64,000 bases of DNA, from contig JAFGXQ010000013.1 of NCBI GenBank assembly GCA_016936575.1, forward strand, positions 2,835-66,834, in the 5' to 3' direction. This DNA is from Deltaproteobacteria bacterium. Its GTDB lineage: Bacteria; Myxococcota_A; Polyangia; JAAYKL01. Of this stretch, positions 19,544 through 63,619 are shown in pieces. The notes beneath the pieces are model-generated. The model saw nothing but the letters and a program-made list of their open reading frames with translations, made no database searches and was not told the DNA's origin. Both the position numbers and the translations under genes were made by a program. The number at the start of each line of letters is the position of its first letter. Position 1 is the first letter of the stretch.

Positions 19544-19580
19544 TTTTCTGCCTTTCTTGTTCAACAGGGCGACTCGAGAT

Positions 19581-19608
19581 ATAGGGTCGCTTCGCGAATC
19601 GCCCCTAC
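19581..19608. repeat. 28-bp imperfect palindromic element (second copy of the 18351..18378 element)
   Basis: ATAGGGTCGCTTCGCGAATCGCCCCTAC. Its reverse complement matches GTAGGGGCGGTTCGCAAACCGCCCTTAT (18351..18378) at 23/28 positions. Lies between the trx2 gene and the Trx-lipoprotein gene. Confidence 0.35.
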
Positions 19609-19632
19609 AAGTTCTCAACCCCTACCCAATCA

Positions 19633-19869
19633 TCAGCTCGCGCTGGTAATCCATGAAACAATTTCACCGGTCGCGGGTATTTTGCCGCAGCTTTTTACTT
19701 CTTCGTTCACCACCAGCGCGGGCGTCATCATCACACCATACGCCAAAATCTCGTCAATCTGATCCACTTTGGTCAGTTGAACTTCTTTTCCCGACTCCAG
19801 AATCGCTTTCTCTGCCTGCGCATACAGCTGGTTGCATTTAGCACATCCGGTTCCAAGCACTTTCACCAT
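19633..19869 (-). CDS. small thioredoxin-fold protein (redox-active disulfide protein 2-like)
   Basis: ORF 19633..19893. Probable start MVKVLGTGCAKCNQ (about 79 aa). CxxC near N-terminus and a second C-terminal Cys, as in the small Trx-like proteins that accompany COG0701 permeases. Confidence 0.65.
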   Translation of the reverse strand: MVKVLGTGCAKCNQLYAQAEKAILESGKEVQLTKVDQIDEILAYGVMMTPALVVNEEVKSCGKIPATGEIVSWITSAS

Positions 19870-19919
19870 CATTTTCAATTCTCCTTCTGACAAAAATCAT
19901 CTCAAAATAGTTTTACATG

Positions 19920-21086: not shown

Positions 21087-21103
21087 TCTGAATTGCCACT
21101 CCA

Positions 21104-21123
21104 ATATGGCCACATGGCCATAT
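21104..21123. promoter_or_regulatory. inverted repeat ATATGGCCA-CA-TGGCCATAT (candidate ArsR-family operator)
   Basis: Seen directly between the arsR stop and the permease start. Second copy at 21463..21482. Confidence 0.5.
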
Positions 21124-21482: not shown

Positions 21483-21669
21483 GTCAAGTTCAGAAAAGCC
21501 GAATATCAAGGCAACCATTTAAAAACAAAACGACCGATACAAACCGCTTTTAAATCGTTTTCGCATCAAGTACGATGGACAACAACCTTAAATACACAAT
21601 CATGCGCTTTGCCCGACAATTTCATGCCCGGCAAAAAAATGCATGGGACGCCCTACTGAAAGGAACAAA

Positions 21670-23751
21670 ATGAGCTTTTTAAAACTTATCCTTATTTCTT
21701 TTTGCGCACTTTTCACCATGACCGCTTGCACCGACGAACCGACCGGGGCTCCATTTACAGCGTTCCCGAAACCGGTGCAGGCGCAGTATGCGAAATATTA
21801 CAACTCTCCCAATGACTTTTACGAATTGGACCGTTCGGGCACACTGGGCAATCAAGCCACCGGGGCGCTGTACTGCGAGCAACGCAGCGGGGGAGAAATC
21901 ATTTATACCGATTCGGGCAATGCGGTGCGGGGAACCTGCGGTCTGGCCTTTGTATCGCCACACTACGCCATCACCGCCGCACATTGCGTGGACGTAGACT
22001 CCTGCGGCTATCCGGGTGTTACATTCAAAGTTCGACAATTTGACATTCGCGAGTTGGATGAGTCTGTGCTGGACGACGTATTCACCCTGTCCAATGTGCT
22101 GAATCCCGAATTCGAGACCTGGCAGCCGAATCACTTTCTGACTGATTCAGATGGATACCACTACAATGAGTATGAATGCAGCGTGGAAATTTTGTGTGAC
22201 AGCGCCGGCAATTTCGGACGACGCAACGGTGACATTTGCCAGTTGAACGGCACGTCTTTCTATCGCGACATCGCGCTGGTGCATTGCCCGAATCGCGCAG
22301 ATGACGGCCCATACCTGGAAGTGGCGCCCAGCGTCAACCCCGGCGACAATGTTCTGGTGCACTGGTTTCACGAAATCGTCAATCTCCCGTTGCCTGAAAA
22401 CTGTACAGCGCCGGAATGCGCCAATGCCAACGCGTTTTACAGCTTGCGGTCATCGATGGCGAACAACTTTCACTACATGGGGTTTGATTCCACCCGGGAA
22501 ACGCAGCTGATGCCGCTCATCACGGTGGCTTGGGGACGAAACGACACCGAGACTGATACAGAAACATCCGTTCAAAGCTCCGTGCCGCCGGAGTTGGTCG
22601 AAAACACGCATGCATTGCTCTCGACCGATACCTTCTACGCCAACACCGACATCTGGGGATGCCACGGCATATCCGGTTCCGGCTTACTGGTAGTGGGAGA
22701 TGACGGTGTGGAACGATATGTGGGCCCTGCGCAGCTCGGCTCCTACACCTCGTCCTTGGACACCAATCTATGCGAAACTTCTGATGCGGTGCCGGGACAG
22801 GAAATGCTCCGTTTCGGGCAGTCTTACTATTCCGCAGTATTGGCAGCGTGGGCATTGACGAATGATCCCGCGCTGAATGTAGACACGGATACATCCGCGG
22901 ACAGTGATACTGCGCCAGATACAGACACATCGACAGATGCAGACACCGACAGCGACACCGATTCCGATTCCGATTCCGATTCCGATACCGATACCGATTC
23001 CGATACCGACAGCGACACCGATTCCGATTCCGATTCCGATACCGACACCGATTCCGATTCCGATTCCGACAGCGACACCGATTCCGATACCGATACCGAT
23101 TCCGATTCAGACAGTGACAGCGACACAGACACAGACTCCGATTCAGATTCAGATACCGACTCAGATACTGATTCAGATACCGATACCGATTCCGACGCGG
23201 ATACTGATTCAGATACTGATTCAGATACTGATTCAGATACCGATGCCGATTCCGACGCGGATACTGATTCAGATACCGATGCCGATTCCGACGCGGATAC
23301 TGATTCAGATACCGATGCCGATGCCGACGCGGACACTGATTCAGATGCCGACGCAGATTCCGACGCGGATACTGATTCAGACACTGATTCAGATACCGAC
23401 ACCGATGCCGACGCAGATACTGATTCAGACACCGACTCAGATACTGATTCAGATACCGATGCCGACACAGATTCCGACGCGGATACTGACGCAGACAGCG
23501 ACGATGGCCCGCCTTCGTCAGATTCGGACTCCGGCGGGTTGACCGATTCAGATTCGTCAACAAATACCGGTTCAGATTCGTTGCCGAATGCAGATTCAGA
23601 ACCATTGATGGATAGCGACACAGGTGAAACGCTTGCTGATGAAGAAGATGTTCACACCGAAGAGTCGTGCGGCTGTATGGTTCCGGGAATGCCTACTGCT
23701 CAGGATTCCGATTTACTGAATCTGATGATTCGGCTGTTTACCAATTCGTAG
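21670..23751 (+). CDS. S1 (trypsin-like) serine peptidase lipoprotein with long C-terminal acidic D-S/T/A repeat region
   Basis: ORF 21643..23751. Probable start [20 protein letters not shown] (lipobox). His motif YAITAAHCV, Asp in RDIALVHC, Ser region [11 protein letters not shown]. Then about 220 aa of DSDTD/DADTD repeats and a short C-terminal tail. Confidence 0.65.
22879..23563. repeat. low-complexity GAY-WCN hexanucleotide-type repeat encoding poly(Asp-Ser/Thr/Ala)
   Basis: Seen directly. Produces stop-free ORFs in several frames on both strands, which are artefacts. Confidence 0.8.
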
Positions 23752-23769: not shown

Positions 23770-24864
23770 TCAATATACCCACGGAATGATCCGCTTCGGC
23801 ACCTTCTGAACATATTCTTCCCACAGGGCACCGTATTTCGCGCGGCAGCGCTTCTCGTCATCGCGCTCCCGGGTGGTGAGCAGCAGCACATAGTACAGCG
23901 GATACAGCCAAGCCCACCAAACCAAGGGGTACCCCAACGAAAGTGTCAGTCCCGTTGCCATCAGTACCTCCCCCAGATAGTTGACATGACGGGATATTCC
24001 CCAGAACCCACTGCACAATAGCGAATGCGTACCGTCGGATACCACTGCCGGCTTGAATACGCCCATAAATGATTTGTCAGGTTGCGTCTTGAAATAAAAT
24101 TTCTGCATGTTGGCGCCGCGGGCGAACCCCCACCCCAGAAAAAAAATCGCAGCATACAACGCGAGTAATACCGGGGACAGGTTCGGGCTCGGCAGCGGGG
24201 CCACCGTCCACAATCCGACCGCATAGAAGTACGGGTAAAACGTAAGACACCCGAACGTAAGCTTAAAGCCGACACGTTCGGCAAACAGATCATACGTGTA
24301 CAGGTGTACCCGCTCAAATGTCATGTAATCTAAAAGAAACCAGAAAAACAAAACGGTGTACAGGATTACCGAAGGCGACGCATTGCCCGGGTGCTGCATC
24401 ACATGATGGGCCGCAAAGGACAGAATATTCAGACCCAGCAGGGTTGCCCCAACCAGATACAGAAACATTTTGGCGTCAACGCGGCGGTTGAAATACTGCG
24501 GATTCTTCGAGCGACCTAAAAAGAAGTCGGCAATGAAGCCGGGCTTCACCTTCGGTTTCCCGAGCACTACCGCCAAACTGCCGATCATTCCCAACGTGAC
24601 CGCCCCTGCCAATCCTTCCCAACGGTGGGTGTACAACCAATTGAAGGGAATAATAGATCCCAAACCCAACCCGCCGAATATCGCCATAGACAATAAAAAT
24701 ACGGCCATACCATTTAACCGGTACGTCAACCGCGTGCCGCTTTTTTCATCAACCACATAGCCGGCCACGCGACGTGCCGGCAGCACGATGTGCAACAGCA
24801 GCACGCCCGCGGTAATCAGCCACGGAGCGAAAAAACCTGCAATTGTATTCCATGTGATGTTCAA
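23770..24864 (-). CDS. ERG4/ERG24 sterol-reductase family (DUF1295-like) polytopic membrane protein
   Basis: ORF 23770..25194. The upstream 110 codons overlap the SDR gene in another frame. Probable TTG start at 24862-24864 overlapping the SDR stop (TTGA). C-terminal signature LLCSGFWGISRHVNYLGEVL matches the sterol reductase/DUF1295 motif. Confidence 0.6.
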   Translation of the reverse strand: MNITWNTIAGFFAPWLITAGVLLLHIVLPARRVAGYVVDEKSGTRLTYRLNGMAVFLLSMAIFGGLGLGSIIPFNWLYTHRWEGLAGAVTLGMIGSLAVVLGKPKVKPGFIADFFLGRSKNPQYFNRRVDAKMFLYLVGATLLGLNILSFAAHHVMQHPGNASPSVILYTVLFFWFLLDYMTFERVHLYTYDLFAERVGFKLTFGCLTFYPYFYAVGLWTVAPLPSPNLSPVLLALYAAIFFLGWGFARGANMQKFYFKTQPDKSFMGVFKPAVVSDGTHSLLCSGFWGISRHVNYLGEVLMATGLTLSLGYPLVWWAWLYPLYYVLLLTTRERDDEKRCRAKYGALWEEYVQKVPKRIIPWVY

Positions 24865-25742
24865 CGATTCTCTCCTCTCGTCTGCTCGACATTCTGAATG
24901 GAGTTTGCAGCCGACAGCTCCCGCATGGCGTTTCCCATAACCTGTACCGACAGCTTTCGGGGAAGCAGTCTTGTCATCATCCAATCCGCAAACCGATTCA
25001 TCCGACCGGGAATCACAAACGGCTTTCTCCCCAGTGCCCGAAGTGCGGTTCGCGCCACCACCGCTGCATCGAGCGTTCCCGGCGCTTCCCTGACTTCTCC
25101 ACTTTTTGACGCCACACTCAAGTATCCCGGCGTTCGAATCGCGCCCGCGCAGCAAACCGTGACATCCACCCCCAACGGGCGCAATTCGTACCACAGACTC
25201 TGCCCCAGAATGGAATTGAACGCCTTACTCGCCGCATACGCTGCCACACCAGAGGTGCCCTGGTTTCCGGATAAAGAAGACATCAAAACAACTCCCCCGC
25301 GACGCTCAATCAGCCTTGGAAGCAATGCATGAATCAGCAACAACGGCCCCCGAACATTCACATCGACGGTGCTGTTCAGCTCATGGGCGGTACGCTCAAT
25401 GAACGGCCCCACTTTCGAATAGGCGGCATTGTATATCAACAGTCCCGCCTGCTTTTCCTCAAATGCCTGTAAAAGCATTTTCCCTGTTTCAGGCGTTGAA
25501 AGGTCCGCCCCAATGCAGTGTACCGCAATGTGAAACTGATCTTTCAATTGGTCTCCAAACATTTGCAGCACGTCTTGCCGCCTCGCCACCAATATCAAAT
25601 TCAATCCCGCTTCGGCAAGCTGCGTCGCAAACGCTGCCCCCAGTCCCTCAGAGGCCCCCGCCACCAATGCCCACGGTCCGTATCTTTTCCTGAGTTTGTT
25701 ATTCACGTTCTTTCGCACTTTCTTTTGCCATCTGAAAACCAC
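24861..25742 (-). CDS. SDR family NAD(P)-dependent oxidoreductase
   Basis: 293 aa. Rossmann motif LVAGASEGLGAAFA. Catalytic YAASKAF (YxxxK). Translationally coupled to the downstream reductase-family membrane protein. Confidence 0.8.
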   Translation of the reverse strand: MVFRWQKKVRKNVNNKLRKRYGPWALVAGASEGLGAAFATQLAEAGLNLILVARRQDVLQMFGDQLKDQFHIAVHCIGADLSTPETGKMLLQAFEEKQAGLLIYNAAYSKVGPFIERTAHELNSTVDVNVRGPLLLIHALLPRLIERRGGVVLMSSLSGNQGTSGVAAYAASKAFNSILGQSLWYELRPLGVDVTVCCAGAIRTPGYLSVASKSGEVREAPGTLDAAVVARTALRALGRKPFVIPGRMNRFADWMMTRLLPRKLSVQVMGNAMRELSAANSIQNVEQTRGENR

Positions 25743-28631: not shown

Positions 28632-29639
28632 TTACAAAAACGCCTGTAACCGATCATCCAACTCTGAAAACGAAAATAGTTGGTCGTACGGAAAAATTCC
28701 CGCCATTGCACTCGACACCACTCTGATACCGGTTTCTTCAAAAATTGAGGTCGGATTCAGCCCTCCGATAATAATGGCGCCCGCTCTGTCGGGAGAAACC
28801 GGAAAGTCAAAAATGCTCTGCCCCGGATTTCCAAGGCACATCAGACTGCCCAACCCGATTTCCTGAAGCCGTTGCGCCACAGACCGAATAATGCTGACGC
28901 TCTCCCCGGGAAACTCGCGAAAGCTTGCGCCGATTAAGCCATTTCCGCTGGTAATCGCTCCGATGTAATCGGCCATTCCGGCGCGAATAAATATTTCAAG
29001 CGGGTCAATACTGGTGCCGTCGTATGAAATCAATTCTACGAAACGTCGCGCTTTTCCTTTGCGAATTTCAAGCAAGCCCCCGAATCTGGAAGTTACCGGA
29101 ATTCCGCGACGCTGAAGAATACCATTGAACGTTATTGAACAAACGGTACCCAACCCGACATTTCCATCCGGAATAATGGTACCGAAACATGAACTTCCCG
29201 GACCAAGCAACGTCATCATTCTTCCCATGGCGTATCCCTTGGAAAATACCTTCGCTATCAATTTGCGGCGATAGACCGTGAATTCTTTTATCGGAACGAT
29301 CGAAATATTGACCACTACCGTACCCTGTCGGGTAATTGGATCAAAATCCATGCGGTACGCCATCGTATCTATTTTTCCAGATAGAAATCCCACCCGTTCG
29401 TGCACTCGCGATGATTCAGATTCCCGCACTCCGGCTTCTTTAATCATGCGTCCTTTTCGCCCCCAATTTTCAGTAAACCCGTTCTCGTCGAATTCCTGTA
29501 GATACAGCCGTACTGTGCGTTCGCTGATGTCAAACCCTTGAGCAGTTAATGTGTTTGTTATTCTCGTGCTTGAGAGAGGTACTTGGCTATTGGTCAGTAC
29601 ATCAAGAATGGCAAGCCGCTTTTTTTCCTTTTTGTCCAT
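28632..29639 (-). CDS. NrpR-like (DUF128) nitrogen-regulatory transcriptional repressor family protein
   Basis: 335 aa. N-terminal winged HTH (KKRLAILDVL...STRITNTLTAQGFDISERTVRLYLQEFDENG) followed by two repeated domains, consistent with the NrpR architecture. Divergent from gdhA. Confidence 0.55.
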   Translation of the reverse strand: MDKKEKKRLAILDVLTNSQVPLSSTRITNTLTAQGFDISERTVRLYLQEFDENGFTENWGRKGRMIKEAGVRESESSRVHERVGFLSGKIDTMAYRMDFDPITRQGTVVVNISIVPIKEFTVYRRKLIAKVFSKGYAMGRMMTLLGPGSSCFGTIIPDGNVGLGTVCSITFNGILQRRGIPVTSRFGGLLEIRKGKARRFVELISYDGTSIDPLEIFIRAGMADYIGAITSGNGLIGASFREFPGESVSIIRSVAQRLQEIGLGSLMCLGNPGQSIFDFPVSPDRAGAIIIGGLNPTSIFEETGIRVVSSAMAGIFPYDQLFSFSELDDRLQAFL

Positions 29640-29771: not shown

Positions 29772-31172
<1,401 letters not shown>

Positions 31173-39565: not shown

Positions 39566-40303
39566 TCAAAACGCGGTGGCGGTATACGTGGCGGAAAGGT
39601 TTCGCGGGTCGTAGCAGAACTGGGCACCCGTCTCGCCGATGCAGGCGTATTGGGTGGCTTCGCCGCTCAGCACCGGATCCGTCTCATCCGTGCGGCACTC
39701 GGAATTATCGGCACATCCCTTGGCACATACTTTTGATGAGAGATTCGCGTCTCCCACGATGGTAGCCGCGACCACATCCATCTCAATCAGCACCGTGCCT
39801 GCGGGGCAGCTCGTCATAGCATCGAAATCACCGTATTCAGCAGTGGCGCACACCAAATCGTTGCCGGTGCAGTTGGCCATCGCCTGAATGGCGCAATAGC
39901 CGTTTGCAAAAAACACATCATTGGCCATGGTACCGCTGTACGTGCGCAGGCAAACCACACTGCCTCCGAATTCTGTCGAAACATCGTCGCATCCGATAAT
40001 TCCTTCTCCTCCGTTGGGCAAAGGGACCGTCGCCGACTCACAGGTCGTACCCACGCAGGTACACGCCGAACCGATGGTCTGGTCCGCAGTGAATGCAGTA
40101 TCCACATCGGAGTCGGTTCCACTGTCGGTTCCCGAGTCAGAGCCGGTATCGGTGTCCGTATCGGTATCAGAATCGGTGTCTGTGTCGGTATCGGTATCGG
40201 CGTCGCCGTCGCTGTCCCCGGATTCATCATCGCCACAGGCGCCCAGTCCGAAAGACGCAACCAGCAGCGAAACCAATAACAATAAATAAAAATGAATTTT
40301 CAT
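39566..40303 (-). CDS. acidic-repeat lipoprotein with Cys-rich C-terminal domain
   Basis: ORF 39566..40354. Probable start MKIHFYLLLLVSLLVASFGLGAC (lipobox). DTDTD repeat stalk. C-terminal domain of about 180 aa with about 14 Cys, ending ...TYTATAF. Confidence 0.6.
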   Translation of the reverse strand: MKIHFYLLLLVSLLVASFGLGACGDDESGDSDGDADTDTDTDTDSDTDTDTDTGSDSGTDSGTDSDVDTAFTADQTIGSACTCVGTTCESATVPLPNGGEGIIGCDDVSTEFGGSVVCLRTYSGTMANDVFFANGYCAIQAMANCTGNDLVCATAEYGDFDAMTSCPAGTVLIEMDVVAATIVGDANLSSKVCAKGCADNSECRTDETDPVLSGEATQYACIGETGAQFCYDPRNLSATYTATAF

Positions 40304-40412
40304 AATCAACATCCTTTGTTTTGCATGAATTATGGTGATGCCATCATACAACAAATGAAAAATGAAAATAAAAAAAATGCACTCGGTAGGTGAGAGAAGA
40401 AATGACGTTCAG

Positions 40413-52787: not shown

Positions 52788-53810
52788 ATGAAAAAACTAC
52801 TCATCCTTCTTTTAAGCCTCCTGGCCCTGGTTGCATTCAGCTGCAGCGACTCAGGATCATCGGGAGAAAGCGATGGAGATGCGGATTCCGACTCAGATGC
52901 GGATTCGGATTCCGACACAGACTCAGATTCGGATTCGGATACGGATTCTGACTCAGACACCGACTCGGATACGGACACCGACGCGGACACCGACGCGGAC
53001 ACTGACACTGACACCGACGCAGACACTGATGCCGATACCGACGCCGACACCGACACCGACACTGACGCGGATACGGATTCCGACACAGATTCAGATACCG
53101 ACACCGATGCCGATTGTGCCTATAACTGCGCCGGAAGCGAACAGGCGTGTGAAAATGGGTGGGGTGTCGAAGCCGGTAGCGTAGTGGATGGCGACTGCGT
53201 GGTTGTCGGCGGCCCCAATGACGGCGAAGACGGTTTCTGCTGCATGCCTGCCGGTGCAGACGGCGATACCGATAGCGACACAGACTCGGATACCGATGCC
53301 GATACCGATACCGACGCCGATACCGATGCCGATACCGACGCCGACACAGACTCAGATGCCGACTGTGCATATGATTGTGCCGGTAGTGAGATGGCGTGTG
53401 AAAATGGATGGGGTGTCGAAGCGGGTAGCGTAGTGGATGGCGACTGCGTCGTTGTCGGCGGTCCAAATGACGGTGAGGACGGTTTCTGTTGTATGCCGGC
53501 CGGTGCAGACGGCGACACCGATAGCGACACCGATTCGGACACCGACTCAGACACAGACGCCGACACTGACGCCGACACTGACGCCGACACTGACGCGGAT
53601 ACCGACGCCGACACCGATTCAGATGCGGATTGTACATCCTGTCACGACCTTCCTCCAGGTGGCCGTCCTCACGACAATACACATAATGAATTCTCGTGTA
53701 ATGATCCCGACTGCCACGGCGGTGTGGTGAGCGCTGACGGCTCCACAATCGTCGATGACAGCCTCCATATGGACGGCTCAAGCAACGCGGCATGTAACAA
53801 CTGCCACTAA
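52788..53810 (+). CDS. acidic-repeat lipoprotein with two duplicated Cys-rich modules and C-terminal paired-CxxCH (putative c-type heme-binding) module
   Basis: 340 aa. MKKLLILLLSLLALVAFSCSDSG lipobox. Three DSD/DTD/DAD repeat tracts. Two near-identical about 60 aa six-Cys modules. C-terminus CTSCHDLPPGG...CNDPDCHGG...CNNCH. Confidence 0.65.
   Translation: MKKLLILLLSLLALVAFSCSDSGSSGESDGDADSDSDADSDSDTDSDSDSDTDSDSDTDSDTDTDADTDADTDTDTDADTDADTDADTDTDTDADTDSDTDSDTDTDADCAYNCAGSEQACENGWGVEAGSVVDGDCVVVGGPNDGEDGFCCMPAGADGDTDSDTDSDTDADTDTDADTDADTDADTDSDADCAYDCAGSEMACENGWGVEAGSVVDGDCVVVGGPNDGEDGFCCMPAGADGDTDSDTDSDTDSDTDADTDADTDADTDADTDADTDSDADCTSCHDLPPGGRPHDNTHNEFSCNDPDCHGGVVSADGSTIVDDSLHMDGSSNAACNNCH
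53110..53610. repeat. tandem intragenic duplication (two about 250-bp units, about 85-90% identical)
   Basis: Seen directly. Each unit encodes DCAY(N/D)CAGSE(Q/M)ACENGWGVEAGSVVDGDCVVVGGPNDGEDGFCCMPAGADGDTDSD plus an acidic repeat. Confidence 0.6.
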
Positions 53811-53990: not shown

Positions 53991-54499
53991 TTGAAAAAAC
54001 TACTCATCCTTCTTTTCAGCCTGCTGACCCTGGTTGCGCTGAGTTGCAGTGATTCAGGAACAACAGGCGGTGGCGATGGAGACACAGACGGTGATGCCGA
54101 CTCAGACAGTGACGGTGACGGAGACGCAGACAGCGATACCGATTCTGACACTGATAGTGATACCGACTCTGATACCGACTCTGATACCGACAGCGACACA
54201 GACGCTGATACCGATTCGGATTCAGACCCAGTCTCATGTGATACATGCCACGGAAATCCACCCGGCGGCAGCCCCCCCCCCACAACCGGTCTGTCCATCT
54301 GAGCTTCGGCTGCAACAACCAGAACAACCACGGAGATATGATCGACGCGGCGGGAACCGTGATTCTGGACGATACTCTCCACCAGAACGGAACCGTCGGC
54401 ACCACCTGCGGCTCAGGCGGGACCGGCTGCCACCGATTTCAATTTCGTTTACCCCGCGCCGTTTTTCCATTCGCATTTCTGACAATCACGTATATTTGA
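53991..54499 (+). pseudogene. paralog of the 52788 lipoprotein interrupted by a frameshift at a C10 homopolymer tract (54272..54281)
   Basis: Frame A (53991..54302) encodes lipobox, DSD stalk and CDTCHGNPPGG, then terminates. Frame B (54245..54499) continues with PPPHNRSVHLSFGCNN...DDTLHQNG...GTGCH, homologous to the paralog tail (RPHDNTHNEFSCND...DDSLHMDG...CNNCH). Adding 1 C (C11) or removing 2 (C8) would restore a single frame. Confidence 0.5.
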
Positions 54500-54573: not shown

Positions 54574-56397
54574 ATGGAAAACAACATGAATAATTTAATA
54601 AAAATCAATATTGTCGTCGGTTTTGTCTTTTTCACAACTAGTTGCATTATGCCGCCCCGGGGCGTGGAAACGCCTCCGATCAAGCCGCTTCCGGACATTG
54701 CGGAACACACAGTGCGTGTGAATCAGGTGGGCTATTTTCCGAATCGCAAAAAAATCGCCGCCTACCGGAGCGACTCTCAGACACCGCTTTCGTGGCAACT
54801 GTTCGACAACAAACAGAAAAAAATCGCTGAAGGCAAAACAACCCCTATCGGGCTCGATGACGACTCCGGGGAGCATGTCCATCTTATCGACTTTTCAACA
54901 ACACAGGTGGAAGGCACCGGTTTCACATTGCGCGTCGGAAATGAAAAATCCGTACCGTTTGCCATTTCATCAAAACTCTATGAGGGTCTTCGACGGGATG
55001 CCGTGCGCTATTTTTATATGAACCGCAGCGGTATTCCGCTTGAGATGCCGTACGTGGAAGATCCATCGGCAGAGCGGGACGCCGGCCACCTCAGCGACAA
55101 AAGTGTGCGGTGTGAAACCGGACAAAAATGCGACTACCGCAAAGATGTTTCCGGAGGGTGGTACGACGCCGGGGATTACGGGAAATACGTGGTGAACGGT
55201 GGTATCAGTGTTTGGATGCTGATGCATATTTACGAGTTTCTGTATGTGAACCGAACCCCGCATACCCAGCCGAAAAACCTGAATATTCCGGAAAGCACCA
55301 ATGATGTACCCGATATTCTGGATGAAGCGCGCTACGAGATGGAATGGATGCTGAAGATGCAGGTGACCGACAAGGAACAGGAATTCTACGGCATGGTACA
55401 TCACCGTGTTCGAAATTCTGAATACACCGCCATGGGGAAGGCGCCCCCGGAGGTAAACGTGGATCCGCCTCGTTATCTTCGAGACGTGGCAACCAGCGCG
55501 ACCCTCAATCTTGCGGCCACCGGTGCGCTTTGCGCCAGAGTCTTCAAACCGTTCGATGATGCATTTGCACAGAAATGCCTGGACGCCGCCGAACTGGCAT
55601 GGACCGCTGCCAGAATGCACCCATCCGAGCGTGCGGTAGGCGTCGGCTTCGTTCCGTACCAGAATCCCGATGTATCGGACGATTATTTCTGGGCCTCAGC
55701 GGAGCTGTGGGTCGCCACCGGAAAAACCGCCTACTACAACTTCATTCTTCAATCTCCCTACTATGAAAAATTCACCCATCGTGCCGGCGGCAGTACCTCG
55801 GCATTCAACTGGGCGGACACCGATGGTCTGGGCGCTGTTGCGCTGGCCACCTGCAGTAGGCCGGAAAAACCGGAGTTGGTCGAAAAGAAACAGCAGCAGC
55901 TCATTGCATTTGCAGATAGCCTGCTCGCGCTGATGGAAAAACAGGGGTATCGATTTCCGCTGGACAAGCGAACATATCCGTGGGGGTCGAATTCCTTCAT
56001 CGTAAACAACGCGGTGGTGCTCGCGGTGGCATACCGATTAACCAGCGAAGATAAATACCTGGACGGCGCCATCGTCGCGGTCGACTACATTCTTGGCCGC
56101 AATCCCCTCGACTTTTCGTATGTCAGCGGTTACGGCACCCTGGCGATGCAGTTTCCGCATCATCGATTTTTCGCACCGTCTTACAACAACAAACTGCCGT
56201 TCATTCCACCGGGAACCCTGGCGGGCGGCCCCAATACCAATCTGCAGGACAGCACCTCCCGCAGCTTTCGCGCAGGGTGTCCGCCGGCAAAATGTTATGT
56301 GGATCATATCGAAGCATACGCCACCAACGAAGTTGCCATCAACTGGAATGCCGCGTTGGCCTGGATAGCCATCTACCTCGACGAAACCGCCCGTTGA
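54574..56397 (+). CDS. glycoside hydrolase family 9 endoglucanase with N-terminal Ig-like (CelD_N) domain, lipoprotein
   Basis: Start MENNMNNLIKINIVVGFVFFTTSC (lipobox). GH9 signature GGWYDAGDYGKY. Catalytic region NEVAINWNA at the C-terminus. The 5' part of ORF 54049..56397 is read-through of upstream repeat DNA. Confidence 0.85.
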   Translation: MENNMNNLIKINIVVGFVFFTTSCIMPPRGVETPPIKPLPDIAEHTVRVNQVGYFPNRKKIAAYRSDSQTPLSWQLFDNKQKKIAEGKTTPIGLDDDSGEHVHLIDFSTTQVEGTGFTLRVGNEKSVPFAISSKLYEGLRRDAVRYFYMNRSGIPLEMPYVEDPSAERDAGHLSDKSVRCETGQKCDYRKDVSGGWYDAGDYGKYVVNGGISVWMLMHIYEFLYVNRTPHTQPKNLNIPESTNDVPDILDEARYEMEWMLKMQVTDKEQEFYGMVHHRVRNSEYTAMGKAPPEVNVDPPRYLRDVATSATLNLAATGALCARVFKPFDDAFAQKCLDAAELAWTAARMHPSERAVGVGFVPYQNPDVSDDYFWASAELWVATGKTAYYNFILQSPYYEKFTHRAGGSTSAFNWADTDGLGAVALATCSRPEKPELVEKKQQQLIAFADSLLALMEKQGYRFPLDKRTYPWGSNSFIVNNAVVLAVAYRLTSEDKYLDGAIVAVDYILGRNPLDFSYVSGYGTLAMQFPHHRFFAPSYNNKLPFIPPGTLAGGPNTNLQDSTSRSFRAGCPPAKCYVDHIEAYATNEVAINWNAALAWIAIYLDETAR

Positions 56398-56520: not shown

Positions 56521-57207
56521 ATGGGGGGCAATATGACACAGATTTCGGATATATGTGACCGGTATACGCACGCGGTTTTCAACACAGACCAGGATACGGC
56601 GCAAGATACCATTTACCAGGCGCTGAATGAAGGACTACTGGCCGAAGAACTGGTCTTCAATGTTATTTTGCCGTCTCTGGAAAACATGCTCGAAACGTTG
56701 GTTCAGAACGACAACGCAACGTTGTCGCAACATTTTATCGCCGCCAAGGTATCGAGCGCAATGGTCGAAATGTTGCTTCCCAAATTTTCTGGGACCGCCC
56801 ACGCAAACGGAGTTGTGGTTATCGGCACCGCTCGGGGTGACTTTCACGGGCTTGGTAAAAAAATCGTTTCGGGCTGTCTGACCGCCAACCTGTTTACCGT
56901 TTATGACGTGGGGCTCAACGTGCAACCGGAGCGGTTCGTACAGGAGGCGCTGCAAAAAAACGCCTCTGTCATCGCGGTTTCGTCAATGATGATGCACACC
57001 GCAATCGGCGATGACGGGCCAAAAAGAATAAAAAAACTACTGCAGGACCGGCAGCTGACCGACCGTATCAAACTGATCGTCGGAGGCGCACCGTATCGAT
57101 TCGACGACAAGCTGTACCGCGATGTGAATGCCGATGCCACGGCATTGGATGCACTTTCTTCGGTGGCGGTATTCAAGCACCTGGTTCAGGAGGTGCGTCA
57201 TGCCTGA
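56521..57207 (+). CDS. cobalamin (B12)-binding corrinoid protein (MtaC/MtbC-like: B12-binding_2 helical cap plus Rossmann B12-binding domain)
   Basis: 228 aa. DxHxxG motif in GDFHGLGKK followed by S..LS-type and GG motifs (SSMMMHT, VGGAP). Start may be the internal MTQIS. Confidence 0.75.
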   Translation: MGGNMTQISDICDRYTHAVFNTDQDTAQDTIYQALNEGLLAEELVFNVILPSLENMLETLVQNDNATLSQHFIAAKVSSAMVEMLLPKFSGTAHANGVVVIGTARGDFHGLGKKIVSGCLTANLFTVYDVGLNVQPERFVQEALQKNASVIAVSSMMMHTAIGDDGPKRIKKLLQDRQLTDRIKLIVGGAPYRFDDKLYRDVNADATALDALSSVAVFKHLVQEVRHA

Positions 57208-58237
57208 TTCGATGAGCCTCTTTGGAAAATTGATGAACGGAGAGCTTCCCAGCCGGGTTCCGGTGGCGCTGAATCTCTTCGACCAGGGCCAGAAAGAACT
57301 ACGCCTCACCAGCGAACAGTACTATAGCCGTGCGGAAAATGTGGTCTCCGGACAGCTTGAACTGCGAAAAAAATACGGCCATGATGTGGTGTGGGGAACC
57401 CACTATGTCGCCCGCCAGGCGGAGATTCTCGGTTCCCGCCGTACCATTTTTCCAACCAACGGCCCCCCGAACGTGGGCGATATGGTGATAAAAACACACA
57501 AGGACATCGAGACACTGCAAATTCCGGACGATGTGACAGAACATCCGTCATTCACCATTCAACTCGACACCATTCGCATGCTCAAGCGTGAACTGAACGG
57601 CAGCGCACCGGTATGCGCATTTCAAACCGGCACATTCACTCTCCCTTCCATTCTAATGGGCATTCATGCGTGGATGGACTTATTTTTAACCGGCCCCCCA
57701 TCGCTGGTAGACGAGCTACTGACAAAATGCTCGGAATATACCATAAAAACTTTTTCGGCGCTTAAAGAAGCCGGCGCGACGCTGGTAGCCTACGCGAATC
57801 CGATGGTGTCCACCGACTTTTTCTCTCTGCCGCAAATTACAGAACGCTGTCTGCCGTGGGTTAAGCGGGATATGACGCGCATGGGCACAGACGGTCTGGT
57901 TTATTTTTGCGGTGGTTCTCGCATCAACGGCGTGCTTCCCGAAATACTGAAACGCACCACCATCGGTGCATTCCTCGTGCACCCGCAAGACGATGTGGCA
58001 CACGCCAAAGCATTGGTCGGCGGCAAGGCACTGGTCGCCGGAGCGATCAATGATATTCAGCTCATCCGATGTACACCGGAAGAAGCACGTCAGAGCACAA
58101 AAGAGATAATCGAAAAAGGCGCGCCTGGCGGAGGGTTTATTTTAAGCTCCCTCGTGATGCCGTTTCAAATTCCAACTCAGAATATACATGCGGTGGTCGA
58201 TGCGGCACATCAATACGGCGCCTACGAAGCGACCTGA
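57200..58237 (+). CDS. uroporphyrinogen decarboxylase (URO-D) family protein, MtaA/CmuA-like corrinoid methyltransferase
   Basis: ORF 57128..58237. Probable start MPDSMS overlapping the corrinoid protein gene end by 8 nt. TIM-barrel URO-D-like sequence, lacking the uroporphyrinogen-specific context. Confidence 0.75.
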   Translation: MPDSMSLFGKLMNGELPSRVPVALNLFDQGQKELRLTSEQYYSRAENVVSGQLELRKKYGHDVVWGTHYVARQAEILGSRRTIFPTNGPPNVGDMVIKTHKDIETLQIPDDVTEHPSFTIQLDTIRMLKRELNGSAPVCAFQTGTFTLPSILMGIHAWMDLFLTGPPSLVDELLTKCSEYTIKTFSALKEAGATLVAYANPMVSTDFFSLPQITERCLPWVKRDMTRMGTDGLVYFCGGSRINGVLPEILKRTTIGAFLVHPQDDVAHAKALVGGKALVAGAINDIQLIRCTPEEARQSTKEIIEKGAPGGGFILSSLVMPFQIPTQNIHAVVDAAHQYGAYEAT

Positions 58238-58241
58238 TGCG

Positions 58242-58850
58242 ATGAACCACTCTCGCGCCACTCGAATGATCAGCTGCAGCATTCTGAAAAAGGAGGTGCT
58301 GCATGTTCTGAAACGCCGTGAAGGTGCAGTCGATATTACATTCCTGCCGTCGTCTCTTCACAACGACCTCGACAAACTTTCCGCGCGACTAAACGACGCA
58401 ATGGGACGCTTCAACGCGCCCACAGTGGTACTCTACGGCACTTGTCATCCTCAGATGGACAAATTCATCTCTCACCACAACGCCCAAAGGATTCCCTGTC
58501 AAAACTGTATTGAACTCCTGCTGGGAGCTGAACAGTATACCCAATACCTCGCTGACGGCGCGTTTTTCCTGTTGGAGGAATGGGCGCATTCATGGGAAAA
58601 AAACATCGCCGCTGCACTGGGAGCGAATATCGCTGCAAGAAACGCTCTTCTCCGCGATTCGCATCAATACCTGTTATGCGTGAACACACCCTGCTCCCGA
58701 GATTTTTCAGTTCAGGCGAAAAACATCGCGAAACAAACTGATCTGCCGATTCGGTCCCTTGATGTAGAACTCAATTATCTGGAGAACGTCTTTGACCAAA
58801 TACTGATGGTCGGTGACCGTTCTTCCAAAGGAGTAATGCGTAATGAATGA
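58242..58850 (+). CDS. DUF1638-like protein
   Basis: ORF 58188..58850. Probable start MNHSRATRMIS. Cys-containing motifs (GTCHPQ, CQNC). This family is recurrently encoded next to corrinoid protein/MtaA-like pairs (established knowledge, from memory). Confidence 0.5.
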   Translation: MNHSRATRMISCSILKKEVLHVLKRREGAVDITFLPSSLHNDLDKLSARLNDAMGRFNAPTVVLYGTCHPQMDKFISHHNAQRIPCQNCIELLLGAEQYTQYLADGAFFLLEEWAHSWEKNIAAALGANIAARNALLRDSHQYLLCVNTPCSRDFSVQAKNIAKQTDLPIRSLDVELNYLENVFDQILMVGDRSSKGVMRNE

Positions 58851-60727: not shown

Positions 60728-62077
60728 ATGGAACGAAACGATTTTCTAATACCCCGATTTTTTACTATCATAACATTATTATTATCGATGATAACAGTCA
60801 TCGCCTGCTCTGTTGAGGAGGGGCAGATAGATAAGGCTTCCGATGCGGACTCAGACACGGATACTGACTCTAACTCTGACTCTGATACAGATACAGACTC
60901 TGATTCTGATAGTGATGCAGATGCGGATACAGACACCGACGCAGACAGCGACACCGACTCTGACGCAGACAGCGACACCGACTCTGACTCTGACAGCGAC
61001 ACCGACTCTGACTCTGACAGCGACACCGACTCTGACTCTGACTCTGACTCTGATACAGATACAGACTCTGATTCTGATAGTGATGCGGATGCGGATACAG
61101 ACACCGACGCAGACGCAGACACCGACGCAGACACCGATACAGATACCGACGCTGACACCGATACAGATACCGATGCAGATACCGACGCTGACACCGATAC
61201 GGATACCGACGCTGACACCGACTCGGACGCCGATGCAGACACCGACACGGACTCTGATAGTGATGCGGATGCGGATACAGACTCAGATACGGACTCGGAC
61301 ACTGACTCTGATACTACGATCAATTGCGAGACCATCGCCCATCCGGGCAGCGTCGGTCCGCTGGACGTAAATAGTTACAGCGCAGGGTTACGTGACGGAC
61401 CGGACTACGGTTCGCAGACCATGCATGCACCGGTCGGAGATGGGGAATTCCCTGCTATCGCAATTGTACCCGGTTACATGTCGTACGAATCATCCATTTC
61501 GAGCTGGGGACCCTATTTCGCATCCCACGGCATTGCAACGCTGACTATCGGCACTAACAGCATCATGGATCAACCGCCCGCCCGCTCCGCTGCGCTGCTT
61601 GACGCTATCGACACCATTCGTGCAGAAAATGAGCGCCCGGACAGCCCGTTGTATCAACAAATTGATCTCACAAGGCTCGGCGTCATGGGGTGGTCAATGG
61701 GCGGAGGCGGTACGCTCATTACCGTCAACAGTCACCCCGAGCTCAAAGCTGCCATTACCCTATGTGCGTGGAACCCGGGTCAAACCTATCCAAACAATTC
61801 TGTCCCTACATTATTATTCGCCGGGACGGCCGATACCCTCGCGGGAGGGCAGTCTCAGGGGTTCTACACCAGCATTCCCGATACCACCCCAAAGATGCTT
61901 TTCGAAGTGGCCGGCGCCGACCATTTCTTTGCCAATTCTCCAACCGGCGCAAACAATCAGACCGGCTTGTACGGCACAGCCTGGTTAAAAGTGTTTCTTG
62001 CCGGAGATGAATGCTATCGTCCATTTCTGCTGGCCCCCCCCGGCGGCACATCGGATTTCAGAACGAACGTGGAATAA
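60728..62077 (+). CDS. acidic-repeat lipoprotein with C-terminal cutinase/PETase-like polyesterase domain (alpha/beta hydrolase)
   Basis: 449 aa. Lipobox ITVIAC. About 165 aa DSD/DTD/DAD stalk. Catalytic domain with GWSMGGGG nucleophile motif, Asp in GTADTLA and His in GADHFFAN, plus AWNPGQT. These closely resemble the Thermobifida cutinase / Ideonella PETase family as recalled. Confidence 0.75.
60836..61328. repeat. GAY-WCN repeat encoding poly(Asp-Ser/Thr/Ala) stalk
   Basis: Seen directly. Generates artefactual ORFs 60670..61335(-) and 60843..61370(+). Confidence 0.8.
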
Positions 62078-62188: not shown

Positions 62189-63619
62189 ATGAAAACATGC
62201 CAGCACCAGGGAATGACCGTATTATTTCATTTACTATGTATTATGACGTTCACAGCCGTTTTGTCCGGTTGCTCTGTAGACAGCGGTGAAGTCGAGTCCG
62301 AGACCGACGCAGACGCGGATTCAGATGGGGATACAGATTCTGACGCGGATACAGATTCTGACGCAGATGCGGATTCCGATGCGGACGCAGACTCAGATGC
62401 AGACGCAGACGCCGACTCAGACGCGGATTCTGACGCGGATTCAGACGCGGACTCAGATACGGATTCAGATGCCGACTCAGACGCGGATTCAGATACGGAT
62501 TCAGATGCCGACTCAGACGCGGACTCAGATACGGATTCAGATGCCGACTCAGACGCGGACTCAGATACGGATTCAGATGCCGACTCAGACGCAGACTCAG
62601 ACGCGGATTCTGATGCGGACTCGGACGCAGACTCTGACACAGACTCAGATACGGACTCGGATGCAGACTCGGACGCAGACTCAGATACGGATTCTGATGC
62701 GGACTCGGACTCAGACACAGATTCTGACACTGACGCGGATACGGACACGGATTCTGATAGCGATGCGGACTCGGACTCAGATGCAGACACAGATTCTGAC
62801 ACCGATGCGGACAGTGATTCTGATACCGATGCGGACTCGGATTCTGATAGCGATTTTACCGCCGATCCCATCATTCCCGAGATCACCGGCGATTGTCCAG
62901 ATTTTGAAACCGGTACCATCACATACATGGGATTAAGCGGTATTTCCCTACAGGTGGGAGACTTGGGGTCTGGCGACGGCGCCATTCTCTTTTATTGGCA
63001 CGGTACCGGTTCCAGTTCCGCTGAGGTCACCTTTATGGTACCGAGCAGTGTGCGAAACGATATTTTGAATCAGGGCGGAATCATCGTCGCTTTTGACGGC
63101 TCGCTGGGAACCGGCGGCGACTGTTCCGGCACCGCCACGTTCAGCAAAGACGACTTCAACATCGCCGACCAGATTGTTGCCTGTGCGATTCGCGACCACA
63201 ACATCAATCCTCGTCGTGTGTATACCACCGGCTGCAGCGCTGGAGGACTTCAATCCGGATGCATGGGCGCCCTCCGTTCCAACTATGTTGCAGCGACAGT
63301 ACCCAACTCGGGAGGGCTGGTATTTCCTCAATCCATACAGAATGATGCACACACACCCGCGGTAATGACGATGCACGGCGGTTCTTCCGACTGGGTGGGA
63401 GTATCTTTCGCAAGCACCAGCGCCACATATGATGCAATGATGGACAATGCCGGCAGTTTTGTTGTGAATTGTGATCATGGGGGCGGACACTGTCAGGCCC
63501 CATCCGAACTGTATGAAGCGGGCTGGCAATTCATGAAGGCACATCCCTTCGGAGTCGATCCATTCCCGTGGGAAACCGGTCTCGTAGGTTTTCCGGATTA
63601 TTGCGCCATATACGAATAG
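62189..63619 (+). CDS. acidic-repeat lipoprotein with C-terminal alpha/beta-hydrolase esterase domain (LpqC/PHB-depolymerase-like)
   Basis: 476 aa. Lipobox LSGC. About 190 aa DSDAD repeat stalk. Esterase domain with FYWHGTGSS, nucleophile GCSAGG (GxSxG) and MHGGSSD. Subfamily assignment is tentative. Confidence 0.65.
62287..62865. repeat. GAY-GCN/WCN repeat encoding poly(Asp-Ser/Ala/Thr) stalk
   Basis: Seen directly. Generates artefactual ORFs 62227..62985(-) and 62286..62936(+). Confidence 0.8.

What the first reader, a model, noticed from the sequence alone, without database searches (positions are those of the whole stretch)
53620..53810. Paired CxxCH (plus CxxxxCH) motifs at the C-termini of stalk lipoproteins: possible small c-type cytochrome modules
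Gene 52788 ends with CTSCH...CNDPDCH...CNNCH within about 60 residues. Its frameshifted paralog has CDTCH and a partially degenerate copy. Paired CxxCH/CxxxxCH modules of about this size are known as repeated putative heme-binding domains in Geobacter and Shewanella surface proteins (recalled, not verified here). A lipid-anchored, stalk-displayed diheme module next to hydrolases would be unusual. It could instead be a metal-binding or disulfide-rich fold. A CcdA-thioredoxin system is present elsewhere in the window, but no Ccm/Ccs heme lyase is visible.
Basis: partly seen in the sequence, partly recalled or inferred. Interest (0 to 1): 0.5.

Follow-up and report, generated by a model that had tools for sequence, protein, structure and literature searches.

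The report
Tethered three-haem cytochrome c lipoprotein
The last 59 residues of this lipoprotein look like a compact three-haem cytochrome c module on a long acidic tether, a rare and so far unannotated small relative of the giant multihaem electron-transfer proteins of Geobacter-like bacteria; haem attachment itself has not been tested.

Summary
Gene 52788..53810(+) ends with CTSCH, CNDPDCH and CNNCH within 59 residues (53631..53807). The chance expectation for such a cluster in the whole window is about 7e-5.

An exhaustive HMMER search found eight small "hypothetical" lipoproteins that carry 1-3 copies of the same module behind acidic linkers. It also found significant hits to giant TIGR01904/PF09698/cytochrome-c7-type multihaem proteins.

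Across 14 module copies, all six Cys, the three motif His and two further His are invariant or nearly so. A third further His is conserved in 13 of 14. That gives three haem sites with three candidate distal ligands, the signature of a bis-His trihaem unit. It is not a dihaem unit and not a disulfide knot.

The window's Cx4CH aligns with an ordinary CxxCH of the Geobacter-type repeat, not with that family's own CxxxxCH. The module itself scores below every curated family cut-off.

The "CcdA-thioredoxin" pair in the window belongs to the ArsG/ArsF family. No Ccm or Ccs gene is in the window, and the rest of the genome could not be read.

The downstream paralog carries four defects and is probably a pseudogene.

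The closest architectural analogue is PgcA, the "haem-tethered redox string" of Geobacter. Verdict: a new variant of a known kind, of moderate interest.

The parts
52788..52844 (+). Signal peptide with lipobox (MKKLLILLLSLLALVAFS|C); Cys19 is the predicted lipidation site
   Evidence: AAGGAG lies 7 nt upstream. All close homologues have the same kind of N-terminus.
52845..53108 (+). Acidic low-complexity tether 1, (D-[S/T/A])n, 88 aa with 41 Asp
   Evidence: The same kind of tether is found in other lipoproteins of the window.
53112..53255 (+). 48-aa six-Cys domain, copy 1 (DCAYNC...CCMPAG); function unknown
   Evidence: No Pfam or NCBIfam hit and no homologue.
53256..53357 (+). Acidic tether 2 (34 aa)
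53361..53504 (+). Six-Cys domain, copy 2; 96% identical to copy 1 at protein level; part of a 249-nt tandem duplication
53505..53627 (+). Acidic tether 3 (41 aa)
53631..53807 (+). Predicted trihaem c-type cytochrome module (aa 282-340). Motifs: CTSCH 53631-53645, CNDPDCH 53697-53717, CNNCH 53793-53807. Candidate distal ligands: His295 (53670-53672), His299 (53682-53684), His327 (53766-53768). Stop codon at 53808-53810.
53991..54302 (+). Paralog, first reading frame: TTG start (ATG lost by a 1-nt deletion), lipoprotein signal, acidic tether, CDTCH (54237-54251), then a premature stop after the poly-C tract
54272..54281 (+). Run of 10 C at which the paralog's frame is broken; 11 or 8 C would restore it
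54281..54499 (+). Paralog, second reading frame: rest of the module with CNNQNNH (54311-54331, Cys replaced by Asn) and CGSGGTGCH (54407-54433), followed by a 21-aa extension instead of a stop

Best explanation
Gene 52788..53810 encodes a lipoprotein. Its mature part is a string of acidic (Asp-Ser/Thr/Ala)n tethers carrying two copies of an orphan six-Cys domain. At the C-terminal end sits a 59-residue module that would bind three c-type haems covalently, through CTSCH, CNDPDCH and CNNCH. Each haem would be axially ligated by its motif His plus one of three conserved extra His (His295, His299, His327), giving low-spin bis-His haems packed about 20 residues per haem.

The module is a compact, free-standing version of the repeat unit that is iterated many times in giant 'CxxxxCH/CxxCH-domain' and cytochrome-c7-like multihaem proteins.

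Inferred mechanism: the protein is exported by Sec and lipidated. Haem is attached outside the cytoplasm by a Ccm or Ccs system encoded elsewhere in the genome. The trihaem bead then relays electrons between cell-envelope redox proteins and an external or periplasmic partner, such as a mineral, humic substance or another cytochrome. The flexible tether, up to roughly 30 nm for the 88-aa stretch if fully extended, extends its reach. This is the same principle as PgcA 'haem-tethered redox strings'.

Shown here: the motifs, their conservation, the homology and the lipoprotein/tether architecture. Inferred: haem attachment, bis-His ligation, the pairing of ligands to haems, localisation, and the direction and partner of electron transfer.
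For: (1) Three CxnCH motifs lie in 59 aa, far beyond chance.

(2) An exhaustive phmmer search of 1.84 billion representatives gave 24 hits at E<=1e-3. Eight are small lipoproteins with 1-3 copies of the same module behind acidic linkers, with E from 9.5e-41 to 1e-4.

(3) In the 14-copy alignment A1, the invariant positions are C6 C9 H10 P14 H19 C28 H34 G35 G42 H51 C60 C63 H64. H23 and C33 are conserved in 13 of 14 copies. In the 64-segment alignment A2, all six Cys, the three motif His, H19 and H51 remain invariant. Three haem sites plus three extra His is the pattern expected of bis-His multihaem cytochromes.

(4) More distant hits are bona fide multihaem cytochromes. P0005 scores 227 bits on TIGR01904 and also hits PF09698 and Cytochrome_C7. 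P0013, P0015 and P0024 behave likewise.

(5) P0001 and P0003 pass Pfam's gathering threshold for Cytochrom_c3_2, at 32.4 and 27.9 bits against 25.

(6) Every sub-threshold hit of the window module itself is to a cytochrome c family. Nearly all of the 51 weak PDB profile hits are c-type cytochromes.

(7) P0001, with three intact modules, lies on a contig whose tetranucleotide profile correlates 0.94 with the window. It occurs in the same sequencing run as the window's PurL contig. The same genome therefore very likely keeps nine more intact motifs.

(8) The nearest PurL relatives are uncultured Myxococcota or 'Deltaproteobacteria' MAGs. From my own knowledge, multihaem cytochromes are common in these groups.

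(9) The PgcA precedent for lipoprotein, low-complexity strings and cytochrome beads is documented in PMC10570954.
Against: The window module itself is below every curated family threshold: TIGR01904 16.6 against 27 bits, Cytochrom_c3_2 17.8 against 25, MCR 21 against 30.4.

No cytochrome c maturation gene and no other CxxCH protein lies in the 64-kb window. The rest of the genome could not be examined.

The adjacent paralog is broken. That would also fit a lineage that is losing these genes.

I found no experimental demonstration of haem binding for the TIGR01904/PF09698 repeat family in the literature searched.

The third motif has variable spacing in homologues (Cx2, Cx4, Cx5 and Cx6CH). Cx5 and Cx6 are, to my knowledge, not established haem-attachment motifs.
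Confidence: 0.68

Rival explanations
1. The module is a haem-free Cys/His-rich fold: a disulfide-stabilised knot or a Zn/Fe/Cu-binding module displayed on the stalk, for example for binding or metal capture. On this reading its CxxCH motifs resemble haem sites only by descent or coincidence.
For: The same protein carries two other six-Cys domains that are clearly not haem motifs. The module is below all curated cytochrome thresholds. No maturation genes are seen in the window. The apo models have little regular structure. A few weak PDB profile hits are zinc-finger-type proteins such as DnaJ and UvrA.
Against: In every copy, His immediately follows the second Cys at all three sites. The number of additional conserved His equals the number of sites. 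A disulfide knot has no need for six invariant His. Homology to recognised multihaem cytochromes is statistically significant. Cys4/His zinc sites are unusual, though not unknown, outside the cytoplasm; this last point rests on my own knowledge.
Confidence: 0.12
2. The module is an evolutionary relic. The lineage descended from cytochrome-rich ancestors but no longer matures c-type cytochromes. The gene is then either non-functional or retained for its stalk and six-Cys domains only.
For: The neighbouring paralog has four independent defects: ATG changed to TTG, a poly-C frameshift, Cys replaced by Asn, and a lost stop. No other cytochrome and no Ccm/Ccs gene lies in 64 kb. The gene content hints at a polymer-degrading, possibly fermentative lifestyle: a GH9 enzyme, esterases and corrinoid methyltransferases.
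Against: The window copy keeps every invariant residue of the family. The probable same genome keeps a second gene with three perfect modules. Orthologues P0001 and P0003 retain synteny and all ligands at about 50% identity, which indicates purifying selection. A 64-kb window says little about a genome of several megabases.
Confidence: 0.1
3. The module does bind haem but does not work as an electron relay. It might instead act as a redox or gas sensor, a peroxide or radical scavenger protecting the surface enzymes, or a reductant supplier for oxidative polysaccharide cleavage next to the GH9 cellulase.
For: The gene sits directly upstream of a GH9 lipoprotein (54577-56397) and near stalked esterases. 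From my own knowledge, cytochrome domains on carbohydrate-binding proteins can reduce LPMOs (Cellvibrio Cbp2D); I did not verify this here.
Against: The neighbourhood is not conserved. Homologues sit next to OmpA-family and lipoprotein genes, an aldo-keto reductase, or a sigma-54 activator. All three haems are predicted six-coordinate bis-His, leaving no open site for catalysis or ligand sensing. No LPMO was seen among the window proteins scanned.
Confidence: 0.1

Closest known systems
TIGR01904 / PF09698 'CxxxxCH/CxxCH domain c-type cytochrome' repeats (Geobacter sulfurreducens type), as in hits P0005, P0007 and P0024
   Same: Homology is significant: phmmer E = 2e-10 and 5e-9. Both share the core CxxCH-G-x-PP ... 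H ... C-x(n)-CH-G-x-V ... DG ... H-x-(N/D)-G ... CxxCH. P0005 even shares the pair of His between the first two motifs.
   Different: The window module overlaps the curated model only over its C-terminal third (profile positions 47-70) and scores 16.6 bits against a cut-off of 27. Its Cx4CH corresponds to a CxxCH of those repeats, not to their CxxxxCH. The roughly 35-50-aa insert before the next haem site is missing. It occurs as a single 59-aa unit on a lipoprotein tether rather than 5-20 tandem units in proteins of 900-3300 aa.
PgcA (GSU1761) and the 'microbial haem-tethered redox strings' (Fernandes et al. 2023, PMC10570954)
   Same: Both have a lipoprotein signal and cytochrome 'beads' joined by low-complexity 'strings'. 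PgcA's proposed role is reaching and reducing extracellular acceptors at variable distance. Homologues P0001 and P0003 carry 2-3 beads on one string.
   Different: PgcA beads are monohaem domains and its strings are Pro-Thr repeats. Here the bead is a trihaem unit and the strings are poly-acidic Asp-Ser/Thr/Ala. Sequence homology to PgcA was not tested. Cleavage and release, as in PgcA, are unknown here. The window protein adds two orphan six-Cys beads.
Trihaem cytochrome c7 (PpcA family, PF14522) and tetrahaem cytochrome c3 (PF02085 / PF14537)
   Same: Similar size and haem density, about 20-24 residues per haem, and predicted bis-His ligation. From my own knowledge, c3 uses alternating CxxCH and Cx4CH motifs. 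The weak full-length profile alignment to Desulfomicrobium c3 (1aqe) places CxxCH, Cx4CH and CxxCH in the same order. Relatives P0001, P0003, P0004 and P0012 pass these Pfam models.
   Different: The window module is below threshold (17.8 against 25; 14.0 against 24.8). The PDB matches are not significant (E = 1.1 and 0.11). The distal His lie between motifs 1 and 2 rather than before motif 1. No structural match was obtained.
Lipid-anchored outer-surface multihaem cytochromes (MtrC/OmcA of Shewanella, OmcB of Geobacter)
   Same: Lipoprotein-anchored c-type multihaem proteins that act in extracellular electron transfer; this rests on my own knowledge. The A2 profile weakly hits MtrC/OmcA-family chains.
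   Different: Those are large (10-12 haems), globular, and paired with porin-cytochrome partners. There are no acidic tethers. No porin-cytochrome genes lie next to this gene.

Membership tests
c-type cytochrome (general definition) | One or more Cys-x(n)-Cys-His haem-attachment motifs | tested here: met
   CTSCH, CNDPDCH and CNNCH are present and conserved in all intact homologous copies.
c-type cytochrome (general definition) | Export to the extracytoplasmic side, where haem is attached | tested here: met
   N-terminal signal peptide with a lipobox Cys19. Judged by eye; no dedicated predictor was available.
c-type cytochrome (general definition) | Conserved second axial ligand (His or Met) for each haem | tested here: met
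   H19 and H51 are invariant and H23 is conserved in 13 of 14 copies. Which His serves which haem was not determined.
c-type cytochrome (general definition) | A cytochrome c maturation system (Ccm or CcsBA/ResBC) in the genome | not testable with these tools
   None is in the 64-kb window: no WWD motif, 30 ORFs scanned, and the CcdA-like gene is ArsG. The rest of the genome is not readable here.
c-type cytochrome (general definition) | Covalently bound haem in the protein | not testable with these tools
   This needs haem staining, pyridine haemochrome analysis or mass spectrometry.
TIGR01904 / PF09698 (GSu_C4xC__C2xCH) | Score at or above the curated cut-off (27 bits NCBIfam; 21.7 bits Pfam) | tested here: not met
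   The isolated module scores 16.6 bits and the full protein 12.1 bits, covering only profile positions 47-70. PF09698 gave no hit.
TIGR01904 / PF09698 (GSu_C4xC__C2xCH) | The family's own CxxxxCH, followed about 25 aa later by CxxCH-G-x-PP | tested here: not met
   In P0005 the family's CxxxxCH (for example CTNISCH) precedes CSGCHGNPP. The window has nothing before its CTSCH except tether. Its Cx4CH aligns with the later CQVCH-type motif.
TIGR01904 / PF09698 (GSu_C4xC__C2xCH) | Statistically significant homology to member proteins | tested here: met
   phmmer E = 2.0e-10 (P0005), 5.1e-9 (P0007) and 9.4e-4 (P0024) against 1.84 billion sequences. These proteins score 227 bits on TIGR01904.
PF14537 Cytochrom_c3_2 / PF14522 Cytochrome_C7 | Score at or above Pfam's gathering threshold (25 / 24.8 bits) | tested here: not met
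   The window module scores 17.8 and 14.0 bits. Homologues P0001 (32.4) and P0003 (27.9) pass c3_2.
PgcA-like haem-tethered redox strings | Lipoprotein signal, low-complexity linkers and cytochrome domains as beads | tested here: met
   The architecture was read from the sequence and from homologues. The definition is taken from PMC10570954.
PgcA-like haem-tethered redox strings | Sequence homology to PgcA, with Pro-Thr strings and monohaem domains | not tested
   No PgcA sequence was compared. The strings here are Asp-Ser/Thr/Ala and the bead is trihaem, so at most this is an analogue.
PF18509 magnetochrome (MCR) | Score at or above 30.4 bits | tested here: not met
   20-21 bits, limited to the last 16 residues.

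The most novel reading that the evidence does not exclude
These proteins would form a previously unrecognised class of minimal extracellular redox device in uncultured Myxococcota-like anaerobes. One to three 60-residue trihaem beads would hang from lipid-anchored poly-acidic tethers that also bind cations or minerals. This would give an otherwise polymer-degrading organism a cheap route for extracellular electron disposal. The third haem site would tolerate Cx2 to Cx6 spacing, which would widen the known range of haem-attachment motifs. The poly-C tract in the paralog would act as an on/off switch.
Probability: 0.2. Interest if true: 0.55.

Novelty: new variant of a known kind. Interest (0 to 1): 0.36.

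Why it matters
If haem binding is confirmed, this would be among the smallest self-contained trihaem units, at 59 residues. It would also be a second, independent example of the 'haem beads on a low-complexity string' design, so far described mainly for Geobacter PgcA.

It would flag extracellular electron-transfer capacity in an uncultured Myxococcota-related lineage. Current annotation calls these proteins 'hypothetical', and curated HMMs miss them, so metagenomic surveys of cytochromes are likely to overlook them.

It also shows how the giant TIGR01904-type repeat proteins are built from a compact trihaem unit. The practical consequence is modest, because no new kind of biochemistry is implied.

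Tried and rejected
(1) Word-indexed homology searches found nothing with the 64-aa module and nothing with the six-Cys domain. With profile A1 they found only P0016 and P0017. Only the exhaustive HMMER scan found the family.

(2) A scan of genome contigs with the module found nothing. P0001 as query gave only unrelated generic multihaem loci, L090-L092.

(3) The PurL scan identified the lineage, but none of the 80 related loci carries the module near purL/purQ.

(5) Exact look-ups of the 340-aa protein, the GH9 enzyme, the corrinoid protein and the histidine kinase were not on record. Short-read contigs that carry purL/purQ end inside the first acidic repeat. The poly-C frameshift therefore could not be checked in an independent assembly.

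(6) I rejected a functional link to the neighbouring hydrolases, because the neighbourhood is not conserved.

(7) I rejected the CcdA-thioredoxin pair as maturation evidence, because it is ArsG/ArsF.

(8) I rejected a radical-SAM/RiPP reading. A radical SAM gene precedes P0001 but not its orthologue P0003.

(9) Literature searches for TIGR01904, PF09698 and CxxxxCH gave no experimental work on this repeat.
Full report
**Observation.** The ORF 52788..53810(+) encodes 340 residues. It begins with a lipoprotein-type signal peptide, MKKLLILLLSLLALVAFS|C, preceded by AAGGAG. It continues with 88 residues of (Asp-Ser/Thr/Ala)n. Next come two 96%-identical copies of a 48-residue six-Cys domain (53112-53255 and 53361-53504), separated and followed by more acidic repeat.

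The protein ends, directly before the stop codon, with CTSCHDLPPGGRPHDNTHNEFSCNDPDCHGGVVSADGSTIVDDSLHMDGSSNAACNNCH (53631-53807).

With the window's own amino-acid frequencies, CxxCH is expected 0.23 times in all long ORFs together, and this gene holds the only occurrences. Three such motifs in 60 residues are expected about 7e-5 times in the whole six-frame translation. An independent assembly (Logan contig L001) calls the same gene start.

**Direct family scans.** Pfam and NCBIfam scans of the whole protein and of the isolated module gave only sub-threshold hits. All of them were to c-type cytochrome families: TIGR01904 at 16.6 bits (cut-off 27), Cytochrom_c3_2 at 17.8 (25), magnetochrome at 21 (30.4) and Cytochrome_C7 at 14 (24.8). 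The strong NCBIfam hits to staphylococcal SD-repeat adhesins are compositional matches to the acidic repeats. By the curated criteria, the window protein is therefore not a member of any described family.

**Homologues.** The word-indexed protein search found nothing. The exhaustive HMMER scan of 1.84 billion representatives returned 24 proteins at E<=1e-3.

- The close set comprises P0001, P0002, P0003, P0006, P0008, P0009, P0016 and P0017, with E from 9.5e-41 to 1e-4. These are small proteins of 77-245 aa, nearly all with a lipoprotein-like N-terminus, an acidic low-complexity linker and one to three copies of the same module.
- All eight are singletons in a 15-billion-sequence collection. 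Where they are named at all, they are called 'hypothetical protein' from 'Deltaproteobacteria bacterium' MAGs.
- The distant set comprises P0005, P0007, P0013, P0015, P0018, P0023 and P0024, among others. These are proteins of 850-3300 aa with many CxxCH motifs. They score far above threshold on TIGR01904, PF09698, Cytochrome_C7 and Cytochrom_c3_2.
- P0001 and P0003 themselves pass Pfam's threshold for Cytochrom_c3_2.

**Conservation pattern.** In the alignment of 14 module copies (A1), the invariant positions are C6, C9, H10, P14, H19, C28, H34, G35, G42, H51, C60, C63 and H64. Positions P13, H23, N29 and C33 are conserved in 13 of 14 copies. The single exception at C33 is the window's own broken paralog.

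A local hmmsearch picked out 63 further full-length matching segments from 20 proteins. In the resulting 64-sequence alignment, all six Cys, the three motif His, H19 and H51 remain invariant.

So there are three Cys-x(n)-Cys-His sites and, in the small-lipoprotein subfamily, three further conserved His. That is the arithmetic of a trihaem unit in which every haem is bis-His ligated. A disulfide knot would not need six invariant His, each motif His sitting directly after a Cys. This is the main argument for haem binding. It is comparative, not experimental.

**Relation to the Geobacter-type repeat.** In the canonical TIGR01904 protein P0005, the repeat of about 106 aa runs as follows: CxxxxCH (for example CTNISCH), about 25 aa, CxxCH-G-x-PP, 'SH..H', CxxCH, '..V..NG..I....H.NG', about 35 aa, then the next CxxxxCH.

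The window module aligns from the CxxCH-G-x-PP motif onward. Its Cx4CH (CNDPDCH) corresponds to the following ordinary CxxCH. Its last CNNCH takes the place of the next repeat's first site, with the long insert missing.

This explains why the curated TIGR01904 model touches only residues 3-23 of the module (profile positions 47-70).

In the compact tandem arrays of P0012, P0013 and P0015, the unit is dihaem with two extra His. The small-lipoprotein subfamily adds H23, which I infer serves the terminal third haem.

**Solved structures.** Profile searches of PDB sequences gave no significant hit. The weak hits are nevertheless almost all multihaem cytochromes: HmcA at E = 0.0034, small tetrahaem cytochrome at about 0.01, a GSU1996 domain, MtrC, NrfH and c3. 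These hits are motif-driven and I treat them only as consistent with the interpretation.

**Organism and maturation machinery.** The nearest PurL relatives, at 65-69% identity, are uncultured Myxococcota or 'Deltaproteobacteria' MAGs. The window also encodes a DUF4215 protein. From my own knowledge, DUF4215 is the Myxococcus cysteine-rich repeat, which would fit a Myxococcota affinity.

It sits beside an ArsP/SaoE-like permease, so it does not point to cytochrome c maturation.

No ORF in the window has the WWD motif of CcsA, CcmC or CcmF. Thirty ORFs scanned with Pfam or NCBIfam showed no Ccm or Ccs component. A 64-kb window cannot settle this, and the tools give no access to the rest of the genome.

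There is indirect support. P0001, with three intact modules, lies on NCBI contig JAFGTB010000037.1 and in the same sequencing run (SRR13394436) as the window's purL contig. Its 20-kb locus has a tetranucleotide correlation of 0.94 with the window, the same value as the window's own duplicate contig L001. The same genome therefore very probably maintains a second, intact gene of this family. Its orthologue P0003, in a different, lower-GC organism, keeps all ligands and the same downstream genes: an acidic/Pro-rich protein, a lipoprotein and an OmpA-family protein.

**The paralog.** Gene 53991.. shares the ribosome-binding site and the signal peptide with the first gene, but it differs in four ways:

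- It has lost the A of the ATG, leaving TTG as the start.
- It is frameshifted at a run of ten C (54272-54281); 11 or 8 C would restore the frame.
- Its middle motif reads CNNQNNH, with the otherwise invariant second Cys replaced by Asn.
- It runs 21 codons past the terminal CH.

The same Cx6CH spacing occurs in P0008 and P0017. Four defects make a pseudogene the simplest reading. Phase variation at the poly-C tract is not excluded, and it could not be checked because short-read contigs break in the repeats.

**Context and function.** The same acidic stalk carries a trypsin-like protease (21643-23751), a BHET/PET-hydrolase-like esterase (60728-62077) and a PHB-depolymerase-like esterase (62189-63619). 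It therefore looks like this organism's generic device for holding secreted domains away from the membrane.

A GH9 lipoprotein follows the paralog. However, the homologues sit in unrelated neighbourhoods, so I see no support for a functional tie to hydrolases.

The best-documented analogue is Geobacter PgcA. It is a lipoprotein whose three monohaem domains are joined by Pro-Thr repeats, and it has been described as a 'haem-tethered redox string' that reaches and reduces extracellular acceptors (PMC10570954). By analogy, I propose that the module is an electron-relay bead on a flexible acidic tether. Localisation, partners and direction of electron flow are all inferred.

**Verdict.** The feature is real and is best explained as a compact trihaem c-type cytochrome module (confidence about 0.68). 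It represents a rare, unannotated subfamily related to, but not a member of, the TIGR01904/PF09698 and c3/c7 families. It is displayed in a PgcA-like beads-on-a-string architecture with a different bead and a different string.

It is a new variant of a known kind and of moderate interest. The decisive missing pieces are the genome's maturation system and a haem stain on the expressed module.

Noticed in passing
window 53991-54499: The paralog carries four defects: ATG changed to TTG by a 1-nt deletion, a frameshift at a C10 run (54272-54281), loss of the invariant second Cys of the middle motif (CNNQNNH), and loss of the stop after the final CH. It is either a pseudogene or a poly-C phase-variable gene.
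   Followed up: partly
window 53112-53255 and 53361-53504: A 48-aa six-Cys domain (DCAYNC...GWGVEAGSVVDGDC...GFCCMPAG) is duplicated in tandem as part of a 249-nt repeat. It has no homologue in any search. Its only PDB hits are summed weak matches to blades of designed 'Cake' beta-propellers, and none is significant as a single stretch.
   Followed up: partly
window 21643-23751, 60728-62077, 62189-63619 (also 39566-40354): At least three further secreted enzymes carry long (Asp-Ser/Thr/Ala)n stalks: a trypsin-like protease, a BHET/PET-hydrolase-like esterase and a PHB-depolymerase-like esterase. The protease has the stalk after its catalytic domain and ends in ...ESCGCMVPG... plus a hydrophobic tail, reminiscent of a MYXO-CTERM sorting signal (not tested).
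   Followed up: partly
homologues P0001 (module 3), P0002 (module 1), P0008, P0017; window 54407-54433: The third haem motif varies in spacing among homologues (CxxCH, Cx4CH, Cx5CH, Cx6CH), while the first is always CxxCH and the second always Cx4CH within the subfamily. To my knowledge, Cx5CH and Cx6CH are not established haem-attachment motifs.
   Followed up: no
window 18375-21113 (minus strand): An ArsG-family (CcdA/DsbD-like) membrane protein, an ArsF-family thioredoxin-like protein and an ArsP/SaoE-like permease form one cluster.
   Followed up: yes
window 56521-58850: A corrinoid-binding protein, an MtaA/CmuA-family methyltransferase and a 220-aa protein with no NCBIfam match sit between the GH9 cellulase and a histidine kinase. 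This may be a methyl-transfer or O-demethylation system in a polymer-degrading context.
   Followed up: no
window 28632-29639 (minus strand) and 29835-31172: An NrpR-type regulator (NRD1_2 plus HTH_12) lies next to a glutamate dehydrogenase gene in this bacterial window. From my own knowledge, the NrpR family is best known as a nitrogen repressor of methanogenic archaea.
   Followed up: no
window 23770-25194 (minus strand); 3893-5788 (minus strand): An ERG4/ERG24-family sterol-reductase-like membrane protein and a DUF4215 protein are present. From my own knowledge, DUF4215 is the Myxococcus cysteine-rich repeat, so both would fit a Myxococcota affinity.
   Followed up: no
L083 10001-13327 and L087 8935-12314: The multi-module homologues P0001 and P0003 share a conserved downstream set: an acidic/Pro-rich protein of about 180-220 aa, a lipoprotein of about 309 aa and an OmpA-family protein. 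On the opposite strand lie a PQQ-like beta-propeller and, in L083, a TPR protein. These are possible functional partners of the cytochrome.
   Followed up: partly
L082 1278-1385 (minus strand): A second, partial module-like match (53% identity over 36 aa) lies on the opposite strand immediately upstream of P0017.
   Followed up: no
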